Position numbers and translations under genes: made by a program
The notes under the pieces: generated by a model
Seen by the model: only the letters and a program-made list of their open reading frames with translations
The model's database searches: none
What the model was told of the DNA's origin: nothing
Shown here: in pieces, positions 21,597-22,718 of the stretch
Layout: each line of letters begins with the position of its first letter
Position numbering within the stretch: the first letter of the stretch is position 1
IMG/VR virus record: IMGVR_UViG_2740892442_000004
Reading direction: 5' to 3' (one strand)
Length of the DNA: 64,000 bases
Source: a virus
Lineage: Duplodnaviria > Heunggongvirae > Uroviricota > Caudoviricetes

Positions 21597-21718
21597 CACA
21601 ACGTTGAGGCCATTACATTTTTATCAATTCTAAGGTTCTATTCACAGAGATACCGGCGAGCGTTGATATGTAACATGTTGGGCAAACATTCAATCGGAGT
21701 AGTGGCCTCAACGTTGTG
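21597..21718 (+). ncRNA. Long hairpin element E1 (16-bp perfect stem, about 90-nt loop)
   Basis: CACAACGTTGAGGCCA ... TGGCCTCAACGTTGTG; same terminal CACAAC/GTTGTG signature as elements E2-E4. Confidence 0.35.
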
Positions 21719-21984
21719 AAGACGGGATTGTTGTGTAGGTTTAACCACTGTTGCCATTGGTGCCTGTTTTCACAACAAATGATTCCATACATCACATTGT
21801 ATAAATTACAAAGTAGGTGCTGTCCTCAGAAACATCATCTACTTAAAGATTTTGCCTTCTACTATTGAGCGAAGTCGAAAGCGTCTGGCACTAACGAAAA
21901 GTGCAAGTAGCGGTGCGTTTCCTGGCAGAAACTAAACCGTCGCGATTGGCACTGTTGAGTAATAAATACTGGCAGTGCTGAATT

Positions 21985-22059
21985 GATGGTGTAGCTCAGC
22001 GGTAGAGCAGTTGGCTGTTAACCAACTGGTCGGTGGTTCGAATCCACCCACCATCGCCA
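21985..22059 (+). tRNA. tRNA-Asn (anticodon GTT)
   Basis: Hand-folded cloverleaf: acceptor GATGGTG/CACCATC, D-arm GCTC..GAGC, anticodon stem GTTGG/CCAAC with loop CTGTTAA, T-arm GGTGG-TTCGAAT-CCACC, encoded CCA. Confidence 0.85.
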
Positions 22060-22064
22060 ATTTA

Positions 22065-22151
22065 GGGGAGTTAGTCCGTAGAGGTAGCGGTGTAGACTGT
22101 AAATCTACTGTCATGGCGACTCGGGTGGTTCGACTCCATCACTCCCCACCA
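22065..22151 (+). tRNA. tRNA-Tyr (anticodon GTA), long variable arm
   Basis: Acceptor GGGGAGT/ACTCCCC, anticodon stem GTAGA/TCTAC with loop CTGTAAA, long variable arm, T-loop TTCGACT, encoded CCA; D-arm pairing less clean. Confidence 0.7.
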
Positions 22152-22155
22152 AATT

Positions 22156-22231
22156 GCCGGTTTAGCTCAGTTGGTAGAGCAGTCGCTTTGTAAGCGAATG
22201 GCCAGCGGTTCAAGTCCGTTAACCGGCACCA
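22156..22231 (+). tRNA. tRNA-Thr (anticodon TGT)
   Basis: Acceptor GCCGGTT/AACCGGC, D-arm GCTC..GAGC, anticodon loop TTTGTAA, T-arm AGCGG-TTCAAGT-CCGTT, encoded CCA. Confidence 0.85.
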
Positions 22232-22232
22232 A

Positions 22233-22321
22233 CACAACAGGTAAGAGCATTGGGCGAATCGGCGATACTGACCCACAAGGCCGTAAATCGATAGAGTCAG
22301 ACCAGTGCTCTTACCGTTGTG
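22233..22321 (+). ncRNA. Long hairpin element E2, directly abutting tRNA-Thr 3' end
   Basis: CACAACaGGTAAGAGCAtTGG ... CCAgTGCTCTTACCGTTGTG; about 20-bp stem with one bulge and one U-G wobble in the plus-strand RNA. Confidence 0.35.
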
Positions 22322-22551
22322 AGGAAGTGCAGCTCTTTGAAGCAACCAGAAGATAAGCATCTGGCTTCACAACACAACGATAATATCATTACGGTTAATC
22401 GTCGTTCATGTGCACAATGACTGGTCGAAAGGTAGTGATCTTACCGTTGTGATGAATGCACAGGCTGATGTGCCGCAACTACAGTAGTGCGCGCTTTGCG
22501 GGGCTTGCTACAACCCTGTGTCGGAGTTCAGCACCGACCATCACAATAGCT

Positions 22552-22638
22552 GGAGAGTAGGGAGCATGGTGCTCAAGCGGTCTTGAAAACCGTCCCATTG
22601 TGCAAACGATGATGGTTCGATTCCATTACTCTCCGCCA
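22552..22638 (+). tRNA. tRNA-Ser (anticodon TGA), long variable arm
   Basis: Acceptor GGAGAGT/ACTCTCC, anticodon stem-loop GCGGT-CTTGAAA-ACCGT, long variable arm, T-arm GATGG-TTCGATT-CCATT, encoded CCA. Confidence 0.7.
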
Positions 22639-22640
22639 GA

Positions 22641-22718
22641 CACAGCGTTGAGCGGTTTGGCCTTTTAATCAACTCGATTAAGACTCCGCTAACATAAACC
22701 AGACCGCTCAACGCTGTG
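22641..22718 (+). ncRNA. Long hairpin element E4, 2 nt after tRNA-Ser
   Basis: CACAGCGTTGAGCGGTtTGG ... CCAgACCGCTCAACGCTGTG; 20-bp stem with one U-G wobble in plus-strand RNA. Confidence 0.35.

What the first reader, a model, noticed from the sequence alone, without database searches (positions are those of the whole stretch)
21597..22718. Family of long hairpin RNA elements with conserved CACAAC...GTTGTG ends, two of them fused to tRNA 3' ends
Four elements (about 21597-21718, 22233-22321, about 22376-22455, 22641-22718) each form a 16-20 bp stem closed by CACAAC(G)/(C)GTTGTG around a 40-90 nt loop. Two begin within 1-3 nt of the CCA ends of tRNA-Thr and tRNA-Ser. The stem imperfections are U-G wobbles only when read as plus-strand RNA, the same strand as the tRNAs, which argues for function as RNA rather than as DNA sites. 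I know of no described tRNA-linked hairpin RNA family in phage-plasmids; the nearest analogy is the tRNA-co-processed stable RNAs of T4. Alternatives are tRNA-processing extensions or recombination sites.
Basis: seen in the sequence. Interest (0 to 1): 0.75.

Follow-up and report, generated by a model that had tools for sequence, protein, structure and literature searches.

The report
Phage family of long-stemmed RNA modules
The four hairpins are real and belong to a widespread, unannotated family of folded RNA modules that sit in untranslated, tRNA-rich stretches of many E. coli and Salmonella phages, most likely as stems where the long transcript is cut into tRNAs and small RNAs, though no experiment yet shows this.

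Summary
All four hairpins exist, fold far better than shuffled sequence, and two start 1-2 nt after the CCA of tRNA-Thr and tRNA-Ser. The window is an E. coli SSU5-like phage-plasmid. The hairpins lie in a 1.6-kb untranslated operon tail (21207-22818) that also holds a fifth member and three reverse-polarity modules (GUUGUG...CACAAC).

The same modules occur in the P1 ban-operon leader (where they are annotated as ORFs plp and upl), in lambdoid late leaders and PL-to-N leaders, in a Nonanavirus, and in a Phapecoctavirus tRNA array. No Rfam family matches, RefSeq annotates nothing there, and I found no paper describing them.

Selection acts on RNA of the tRNA strand:
- 16 of 19 stem pairs show compensatory changes.
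- G.U outnumbers A.C by 49 to 11.
- 77 of 213 copies abut a tRNA 3' end.

My best reading (about 0.45) is that the roughly 20-bp closing helices are processing and insulating stems, probably cut by host RNase III. One reverse-polarity module sits where the RNase III hairpin of the lambda N leader lies. The function is inferred, not shown.

Side finds are a tmRNA-tag look-alike, a 15-nt GcvB-seed match and a boxA-like stretch. I rate this a new variant of a known kind, interest about 0.6.

The parts
21299..21334 (+). tmRNA-tag look-alike (A-N-E-E-V-Y-L-A-V-A, then two stop codons) at the head of the untranslated array. It is a side finding and may or may not belong to the same system.
   Evidence: Read directly from the sequence. 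Homologous stretches exist in P1 and PJ16. Rfam gives local tmRNA hits there. Related contigs carry peptide variants that keep the tag pattern.
21412..21435 (+). Perfect 10-bp hairpin (GGAGGGAACA/UGUUCCCUCC) just upstream of E0.
   Evidence: z = -4.8
21442..21520 (+).
   Evidence: I1; z = -4.4; homologues in other SSU5-like loci
21597..21718 (+). E1: 20-bp closing helix with an 82-nt interior that holds the CACAGAG motif shared by E1-type relatives.
21713..21776 (+). S0: reverse-polarity hairpin (GUUGUGAAGACGGG...CCUGUUUUCACAAC). It shares its first 6 nt with the 3' end of E1.
   Evidence: I13; z = -3.3
21985..22231 (+). tRNA-Asn, tRNA-Tyr and tRNA-Thr, lying in the same transcript sense as the hairpins.
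22233..22321 (+). E2: hairpin starting 1 nt after the CCA of tRNA-Thr. The 3' arm carries GCUCUUACC.
22316..22373 (+). S1: conserved three-way-junction module (P1 = GUUGUGAGG/CUUCACAAC, P2 with a CNNNGA loop, P3 = CCAGAAGAUAAGCAUCUGG).
   Evidence: Found in at least 120 viral contigs. P1 and P2 covary. In lambdoid phages it sits between nutL and the N start codon.
22373..22451 (+). E3: hairpin whose interior is conserved in PJ16, phiWec188 and an IMG/VR contig. Its inner loop holds the palindrome GUGCAC.
22446..22547 (+). S2: reverse-polarity module (GUUGUGAUGAAUGCACAGGCUGAUGUG...CAUCACAA), also present in P1 and HK629.
22552..22638 (+). tRNA-Ser
22641..22718 (+). E4: hairpin starting 2 nt after the CCA of tRNA-Ser, with compensated ends CACAGC/GCUGUG.
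22794..22818 (+). Intrinsic terminator that ends the untranslated array. A second, weaker hairpin with a U7 run lies at about 22752-22779.

Best explanation
The hairpins are the closing helices of modular structured-RNA cassettes, transcribed together with the tRNAs as one long untranslated RNA (window 21207-22818, + strand).

Each cassette has two parts:
- a 19-23-bp A-form helix, whose base is usually CACAAC paired with GUUGUG;
- a variable folded interior of 40-90 nt.

Cassettes of opposite polarity (GUUGUG...CACAAC) alternate with them, so the region is a chain of stacked helices.

Proposed mechanism:
- The helices are double-strand processing and insulating stems, and the best candidate enzyme is host RNase III.
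- Cleavage would cut the precursor right after tRNA-Thr and tRNA-Ser. Exonucleases would then trim the short trailers back to CCA.
- Cleavage would also release the interiors as small stem-capped RNAs and leave stem stubs that protect neighbouring RNAs.
- The shared helix ends also act as recombination joints, through which modules are gained, lost and swapped between phages.

Shown: the structure, the covariation, the strand, the tRNA adjacency, the distribution and the presence/absence polymorphism.
Inferred: RNase III cleavage, release of small RNAs, and the role of the ends in recombination.
For: Structure:
- The hairpins fold with z from -2.8 to -9.9.
- A stem-only alignment of 41 distinct copies from about 20 clusters gives 95.4% of cells paired, against 34-55% when partners are slid. 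Of 19 pairs, 16 show changes on both sides.
- Copies at the same position after tRNA-Thr carry GGGUA/UACCC, GAGCA/UGCUC or GAACA/UGUUC.

RNA strand:
- G.U 49 against A.C 11 overall, and 25 against 5 when counted as distinct events per cluster.
- U.G is the commonest pair at stem position 17.
- In every annotated locus the elements lie in the sense of transcription.

Processing context:
- 77 of 213 copies start -2 to +3 nt from a tRNA CCA end, which leaves no single-stranded trailer.
- Helix length is about two turns.
- The sister module S1 caps the stem that lies between nutL and the N start codon in three lambdoid N types. One of these (L056) shares its flanks with the lambda N leader. That lambda hairpin is an RNase III site according to the established literature; this is my own knowledge.
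- The E. coli 16S processing stem has the same GU-rich/CA-rich style and the AGUGCUC string.

Modularity:
- Cyrano lacks E2-S1-E3-S2, with the junction at a CACAA repeat.
- P1 and Ro157c2 differ by whole modules.

Not coding: the minus-strand ORFs plp and upl are disrupted by indels of 13 and 19 nt in relatives.
Against: - No transcript or cleavage data were available, so nothing shows that RNase III cuts these stems.
- I could not score the stems against the published RNase III base-pair preferences, because the table is not held.
- The covariation set was collected with a filter that required pairing, which inflates the percentage paired.
- The strongly conserved interiors (T-arm-like hairpins, a palindromic loop, the invariant P3 of S1) suggest functions beyond being cut.
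- The hairpin is dispensable for the neighbouring tRNAs, as Cyrano shows.
- RNase BN/Z or RNase P could do the tRNA-side cuts without any need for the stem.
Confidence: 0.45

Rival explanations
1. The interiors are the effectors. Each cassette is a small functional RNA (a protein-binding scaffold, a decoy or a tRNA mimic), and the long helix is only a clamp that lets it fold on its own within a crowded transcript.
For: - Interiors are conserved between unrelated phages while the stems differ. The E3-type interior is found in four contexts.
- The CACAGAG motif recurs in E1-type interiors and AAGACUCCGC in E4-type interiors.
- Canonical T-arm hairpins occur in three clusters.
- A palindromic loop switches between GUGCAC and GCGCGC.
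- One tRNA-Thr has its anticodon arm replaced by a 57-nt insert.
Against: - No partner has been identified.
- The four window copies have no T-arm.
- Interiors differ so much between types that one shared function is unlikely.
- This reading is compatible with the processing model rather than exclusive of it.
Confidence: 0.2
2. The helices shield a long untranslated transcript from Rho-dependent termination. They would do this passively by removing unstructured RNA, or actively through a boxA-like NusB/NusE site in the 3' arm, as in rRNA operons.
For: - The array is about 1.6 kb of untranslated RNA with no promoter of its own.
- In lambdoids the modules sit in antiterminated leaders, downstream of pR'/tR' and of nutL.
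- Many 3' arms read GCUCUUAC, which matches the first six bases of the boxA consensus GYTCTTTAANA (PMC5725501) and the lambda boxA GCUCUUA.
Against: - The boxA-like stretch is base-paired, whereas boxA is bound as a single strand.
- E1-, E4- and E0-type arms lack it.
- It departs from the consensus after position 6.
Confidence: 0.1
3. The ends are tied to the host small RNA GcvB. The 5' arm (CACAACA) would sponge the GcvB seed, as the prophage RNA AgvB does, or the 3' arm would mimic that seed.
For: - The 3' arm plus its flank, CUUACCGUUGUGAUG, matches GcvB nt 58-72 (CUUACGGUUGUGAUG) at 14 of 15 positions.
- CACAACA is the published GcvB R1 target consensus, and AgvB lies in the same lambdoid pR' region (PMC4104026).
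Against: - The match is short (E = 0.03 against 1.65 kb).
- Both sequences are locked in a 20-bp helix.
- The hexamers covary with each other, which points to internal pairing as the selected feature.
Confidence: 0.07
4. They are DNA-level elements: miniature inverted-repeat transposons, attC-like recombination sites, or simply recombination linkers with no RNA function.
For: - The arms are terminal inverted repeats with AAC/GTT at the ends.
- Copies show presence/absence polymorphism and module shuffling.
- A tyrosine recombinase gene lies about 2 kb downstream.
Against: - The G.U against A.C asymmetry favours one transcribed strand.
- There are no target-site duplications and no identical copies.
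- The ends miss the attC consensus.
- The recombinase matches only generic phage integrase families, below Pfam's cut-offs.
- The same modules occur in phages that have unrelated recombinases.
Confidence: 0.08

Closest known systems
RNase III processing stems of rRNA operons and of the lambda N leader (also the T7 early R sites)
   Same: - Long helices of about two turns in untranslated polycistronic RNA that also carries tRNAs.
- GU-rich strand paired with a CA-rich strand (rrnB: CUGUGUGGGCACU/AGUGCUCACACAG; lambda: GGGGUGUGUG/CACACACC).
- The S1 module occupies the apex of the lambda-type N-leader stem.
   Different: - Cleavage of these phage stems is untested.
- They close local 40-90-nt domains rather than a 1.5-kb rRNA.
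- Their helix ends recur and they occur as shuffled multi-copy cassettes.
T4 species 1 and species 2 stable RNAs, co-transcribed with the T4 tRNA cluster
   Same: Small non-tRNA RNAs embedded in a phage tRNA transcription unit, of unknown function (my own knowledge).
   Different: The present family is also found far from tRNAs and in temperate phages.
Prophage small RNAs of the lambdoid pR' 'moron' region (AgvB, AsxR, Pas sRNAs, STnc100)
   Same: - Same genomic neighbourhoods: downstream of Q/pR', and near TerB/tciA-type genes (PMC4104026; bioRxiv 10.64898/2026.05.13.724894).
- AgvB uses CACAACA.
- There is a weak STnc100 hit next to a P1 hairpin.
   Different: - Those are 50-90-nt Hfq-dependent RNAs that end in terminators.
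- The hairpins have no terminator.
- No Rfam model for those RNAs matches the hairpins.
Integron attC sites
   Same: Imperfect hairpins of 60-140 nt in which mainly the terminal AAC...GTT and the structure are conserved. They flank cassettes.
   Different: - attC sites act as single-stranded DNA with extrahelical bases and need an integron integrase.
- Here the ends miss the RYYYAAC/GTTRRRY consensus, no integron integrase is present, and the selected strand is the transcribed one.
Bacterial Y RNA (YrlA) and the tmRNA tRNA-like domain
   Same: A long stem combined with a T-arm-like hairpin is seen in some family members.
   Different: - The Rfam YrlA model does not match any hairpin.
- No Ro/Rsr gene is annotated in the stretch examined.
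- The four window copies have no T-arm.
HDV-like theta ribozymes downstream of phage tRNAs
   Same: RNA elements placed directly 3' of phage tRNA genes (my own knowledge).
   Different: The fold here is a simple long helix, not a nested double pseudoknot. No ribozyme family in Rfam matches.

Membership tests
RNase III substrate | Continuous double-stranded helix of about 20 bp (two turns) | tested here: met
   Stems of 19-23 positions in E1-E4 and in relatives
RNase III substrate | Base pairs in the proximal and distal boxes that are compatible with cleavage | not testable with these tools
   The preference table of PMC6212723 is in a figure and a supplement that are not held
RNase III substrate | rnc-dependent cleavage in vivo or in vitro | not testable with these tools
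   No transcript data. The only support is the positional analogy with the lambda N leader.
Any Rfam 15 family | Covariance-model score at or above the gathering threshold | tested here: not met
   Only tRNAs and cspA reach threshold in the window. Nothing covers the hairpins or S1 in the window, in P1, or in 16 other loci.
Integron attC site | Terminal core sites RYYYAAC...GTTRRRY | tested here: not met
   The ends read ACACAAC...GTTGTGA, with one mismatch in the first core and two in the second
Integron attC site | Integron integrase with attI nearby | tested here: not met
   The nearby recombinase (24725-25540) matches only generic phage integrase families, below Pfam's cut-offs. The modules also occur in P1 and in lambdoid phages.
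MITE / transposon remnant | Target-site duplications and near-identical dispersed copies | tested here: not met
   The flanks differ and carry no direct repeats. The copies share only the stem ends.
Y RNA (YrlA) | Match to the YrlA model and a Ro/Rsr partner | tested here: not met
   The only YrlA hit (25.6 bits, against a threshold of 69) overlaps the tRNAs, not a hairpin. No Rsr gene is annotated in 41 kb.
tmRNA (applies to the upstream tag look-alike) | Tag reading frame with its resume-codon context, and the stop codon in a hairpin loop | tested here: met
   Local beta_tmRNA hit with E = 2.7e-5; the hairpin; nine peptide variants that keep the ANDD/ANEE...AA pattern
tmRNA (applies to the upstream tag look-alike) | Alanine-accepting tRNA-like domain ending in CCA | tested here: not met
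   ARAGORN finds no tmRNA in the window, P1 or PJ16. The Rfam scores are far below threshold.
boxA (NusB/NusE site) | Single-stranded GYTCTTTAANA | tested here: not met
   The 3' arms read GCTCTTACCGT, which matches only positions 1-6, and the stretch is base-paired

The most novel reading that the evidence does not exclude
Enterobacterial phages share an exchangeable toolbox of small structured RNAs. Each is packaged behind a common adapter helix (CACAAC/GUUGUG) that serves two purposes: a processing site in the RNA and a recombination joint in the DNA. In effect this would be a cassette system for RNA genes. The toolbox would include tRNAs, tRNA scaffolds carrying foreign inserts, T-arm decoys, kissing-loop RNAs and a tmRNA-like tag element, and it would be aimed at host translation and RNA quality control.
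Probability: 0.15. Interest if true: 0.85.

Novelty: new variant of a known kind. Interest (0 to 1): 0.6.

Why it matters
- P1 and lambda-type phages are among the best-studied genomes in biology. Yet their long untranslated leaders turn out to hold an unannotated, covarying family of RNA modules. In P1 these modules are currently annotated as two hypothetical proteins, plp and upl.
- If the helices are RNase III sites, they explain how phage tRNA arrays that lack single-stranded spacers are matured, and how small RNAs are made from these leaders.
- The family gives testable handles on N-leader regulation in non-lambda lambdoids, on the expression of tRNAs and small RNAs from phage-plasmids that are common in clinical E. 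coli, and on how RNA genes are shuffled between phages.
- It would also improve annotation by adding new Rfam families and removing spurious ORFs.

Tried and rejected
Database and literature searches that found nothing:
- Rfam at gathering and at E-value thresholds, on the window, P1, PJ16 and 16 further loci. Only tRNAs were found, plus weak local tmRNA, STnc100 and microRNA-like noise.
- Full-text paper searches for the arm and S1 sequences, and for descriptions of the P1 or SSU5 region.
- The P1 genome paper is not held.

Readings considered and rejected:
- Y RNA / YrlA, because no model match and no Ro gene were found.
- attC and MITE, because the end consensus, an integron integrase and target duplications are all missing.
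- Minus-strand coding (plp, upl and the window's short ORFs), because relatives carry 13- and 19-nt indels and whole-module swaps, and the ORFs overlap tRNA genes.

Tests that could not be completed or gave weak results:
- The RNase III preference matrix could not be obtained.
- The similarity to GcvB does not extend beyond 15 nt.
- One scan of species-representative bacterial genomes for the E2-type pattern gave only 5 hits: E. coli, Pantoea, an Enterobacterales MAG, and two MAGs from other taxa. I read one of those two; it carries an HK629-like phage stretch and looks mis-binned.
- No tRNA-like domain was found for the tmRNA-tag look-alike.
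Full report
WHAT IS THERE

The window is an E. coli SSU5-like phage-plasmid. It is 100% identical over 21200-22850 to plasmid pMB3825A_2. After the last ORF of an operon (20916-21206) comes about 1.6 kb with no convincing ORF and no promoter of its own. It ends in an intrinsic terminator at 22794-22818. The stretch holds four tRNA genes on the + strand: Asn, Tyr, Thr and Ser.

All four hairpins exist.
- E1, 21597-21718: 20-bp stem, z = -6.7.
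- E2, 22233-22321: 6 + 14 bp with one bulged A, z = -5.9.
- E3, 22373-22451: z = -2.8, with one U.G, one A.C and one U.C.
- E4, 22641-22718: 20 bp, z = -9.9, with ends CACAGC/GCUGUG.

E2 starts 1 nt after the CCA of tRNA-Thr, and E4 starts 2 nt after the CCA of tRNA-Ser. Hairpins with CACARC...GYTGTG ends occur nowhere else in the 64 kb. Each of the four has a U.G wobble at stem position 17 on the + strand.

- A fifth member, E0, at 21442-21520.
- Three modules of opposite polarity (GUUGUG...CACAAC) that reuse the same hexamers: S0 at 21713-21776, S1 at 22316-22373 and S2 at 22446-22547.
The region is therefore a chain of alternating helices.

THE FAMILY IS WIDESPREAD AND UNANNOTATED

The same kinds of hairpin occur in several unrelated phage groups.
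- Four copies lie in the untranslated leader of the P1 ban operon, one of them directly after tRNA-Thr. There they are covered by the hypothetical minus-strand ORFs plp and upl.
- The P1 relative Ro157c2 has them.
- Lambdoid HK629 has one between pR'/tR' and the holin gene.
- Nonanavirus PJ16 has them after the capsid gene.
- Phapecoctavirus phiWec188 has them in its tRNA array.

RefSeq annotates nothing under these matches. Rfam 15 has no matching family in the window, in P1, in PJ16 or in 16 further loci. Full-text searches for the sequences or for a description found nothing. One scan of species-representative genomes found the E2 type only in E. coli, Pantoea, an Enterobacterales MAG and two MAGs from other taxa. 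I read one of those two; it carries an HK629-like phage stretch and looks mis-binned.

RNA OR DNA?

A stem-only alignment of 41 distinct hairpins from about 20 sequence clusters supports a conserved helix.
- 95.4% of cells form standard pairs, against 71% in shuffles and 34-55% when the partners are slid.
- 16 of 19 pairs carry changes on both sides.
- The 'signature' hexamer itself covaries: CAUAAC/GUUACG, CAAAAC/GUUUUG and CACAGC/GCUGUG.

One caveat applies: the hairpins were collected with a filter that required pairing, so the percentage paired is inflated. The diversity of pair types at fixed positions is not affected by this. Copies defined only by their position after tRNA-Thr show GGGUA/UACCC, GAGCA/UGCUC and GAACA/UGUUC.

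For a strand test I defined the stems symmetrically, letting both G.U and A.C count as near-pairs. On the strand of the tRNAs and S1, G.U outnumbers A.C by 49 to 11, or by 25 to 5 as distinct events per cluster. In every annotated locus the elements lie in the sense of transcription.

The minus-strand ORFs are not conserved. Relatives differ by 13- and 19-nt indels and by whole modules.

LINK TO tRNAs

Of 213 hairpin instances in the fetched loci, 77 begin -2 to +3 nt from the CCA end of tRNA-Thr, Ser or Asn on the same strand. In one type the first CA of the hairpin is the CA of the CCA. The remaining two thirds are not next to a tRNA.

Phage Cyrano, on the same SSU5-like backbone, has tRNA-Thr and tRNA-Ser eight bases apart. 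The junction reads CACAAT, where the window has CACAAC...308 nt...CACAAT. The modules are therefore dispensable for these tRNAs, and they are gained or lost at the repeated hexamer.

THE INTERIORS ARE NOT RANDOM LOOPS

- The E3 interior is conserved in four distant contexts. Its inner stem covaries, and its 6-nt palindromic loop changes between GUGCAC and GCGCGC.
- E1-type interiors share CACAGAG, and E4-type interiors share AAGACUCCGC.
- Three clusters contain canonical T-arm hairpins.
- S1 folds as a three-way junction whose closing helix and small P2 hairpin both covary.

HOW IT MOST LIKELY WORKS

The closing helices are about two turns of double-stranded RNA. Where they abut a tRNA they leave no single-stranded trailer. 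The sister module S1 gives the best lead.
- In lambdoid phages with three different N types, S1 sits between nutL and the N start codon. BoxA and boxB are visible in L016 and L056.
- In L056 the stem carrying S1 shares its flanks with the lambda N leader: GGCUUUGG...CCAAAGCUAACU.AC.GGAGAA. Only the apex differs.
- That lambda stem is a classical RNase III site that controls N translation. This comes from established literature and rests on my own knowledge.
- The 16S processing stem of rrnB has the same GU-rich/CA-rich style and the string AGUGCUC.

I therefore propose that the helices are RNase III-type processing and insulating stems. Cleavage would free the tRNAs, with the trailers then trimmed by exonucleases. 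It would release the interiors as small stem-capped RNAs and protect the neighbouring RNAs. This step is inferred. I could not score the stems against published RNase III preferences, and no transcript data were available. I put about 0.45 on this mechanism and about 0.85 on the weaker claim that these are selected RNA structures.

RIVALS

- The interiors may be the real effectors and the stems only clamps (0.2). This is compatible with the processing model.
- The stems may shield the untranslated RNA from Rho, perhaps through the boxA-like GCUCUUAC in many 3' arms (0.1). However, that stretch is base-paired, it is absent from E0, E1 and E4, and it matches only six positions of the boxA consensus.
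- There may be a link to GcvB (0.07). The 3' arm plus flank matches the start of the GcvB seed at 14 of 15 positions, and the 5' arm is the GcvB target consensus used by the prophage RNA AgvB. The match is short, and both strands are locked in the helix.
- The elements may act at the DNA level, as attC-like sites, MITEs or recombination linkers (0.08). The strand asymmetry, the lack of target duplications and the lack of an integron integrase argue against this.

COMPARISON AND NOVELTY

The elements work most like the RNase III stems of rRNA operons and of the lambda N leader. They are not members of any curated family that I could test. The new features are the recurring helix ends, the modular multi-copy and shuffled arrangement across unrelated phage groups, the frequent fusion to tRNA 3' ends, and the conserved interiors. 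I rate this a new variant of a known kind, with interest about 0.6.

SIDE FINDINGS

- A stretch upstream of the array reads like a tmRNA tag (window 21299-21334, ANEEVYLAVA followed by two stops). It has the resume-codon context, and its stop codon sits in a hairpin loop. Related contigs carry nine peptide variants that keep the tag pattern. No tRNA-like domain was found.
- One relative carries a tRNA-Thr whose anticodon arm is replaced by a 57-nt insert.

Noticed in passing
window 21299-21334 (conserved leader from about 21260); also L001 1010-1085 and L005 1160-1255: A tmRNA-tag look-alike reads GCA AAC GAA GAA GUC UAU CUG GCA GUA GCC UAA UAA, which is ANEEVYLAVA followed by two stops. P1 has ANDDLMMVAA and PJ16 has ANEERFLMAA. 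Related contigs carry further variants (ANDDVVLMAA, ANDDQFLAVA and others) behind the same conserved leader. The stop codon sits in a hairpin loop, as in tmRNA helix 5. Rfam gives only local, sub-threshold tmRNA hits, and no tRNA-like domain was found.
   Followed up: partly
L039 2236-2365, minus strand (IMG/VR UViG_2600255169_000001): A tRNA-Thr keeps its acceptor, D and T arms, but its anticodon arm is replaced by a 57-nt insert. Rfam scores it as a 130-nt tRNA, while ARAGORN calls nothing. An E hairpin and S1 follow directly. RefSeq labels a related spot 'tRNA-OTHER'.
   Followed up: partly
window 22310-22324 and 22440-22454; L129 354-368 (gcvB): The hairpin 3' arm plus its flank, CUUACCGUUGUGAUG, matches the start of the E. 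coli GcvB R1 seed (CUUACGGUUGUGAUG) at 14 of 15 positions. The 5' arm, CACAACA, equals the published GcvB target consensus used by the prophage anti-sRNA AgvB.
   Followed up: partly
window 22401-22415 (inner hairpin of E3, palindrome at 22405-22410); L005 1372-1384; L008 1546-1558: The inner hairpin of the E3-type interior carries a 6-nt palindromic loop. It is GUGCAC in two phages and GCGCGC in two others, so it stays a palindrome. This makes it a candidate for loop-loop (kissing) pairing.
   Followed up: no
window 22305-22314 (E2 3' arm) and its counterparts in relatives: Many 3' arms contain GCUCUUAC. This is identical to the first six bases of the boxA consensus (GYTCTTTAANA) and to the lambda boxA GCUCUUA, but here the stretch is base-paired.
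   Followed up: partly
L001 1575-2144 (P1 genes plp and upl): The P1 ORFs plp and upl lie antisense to tRNA-Thr and to three hairpin modules. Indels of 13 and 19 nt and module swaps disrupt them in Ro157c2, so they are probably not genes.
   Followed up: partly
L001 2183-2302: There is a sub-threshold match to the prophage small RNA STnc100 (33 bits, E = 8.6e-5) immediately after the fourth P1 hairpin. It begins with the same GGUGAAUGC that follows other hairpins.
   Followed up: no
window 34188-34606, minus strand: A full-length cspA thermoregulator (186 bits) lies upstream of a plasmid-borne cold-shock gene annotated as cspG.
   Followed up: no
window 24725-25540: The site-specific integrase ORF is 271 aa in the window, but 367 aa in the otherwise matching plasmid record. 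It may be truncated or frameshifted here.
   Followed up: no
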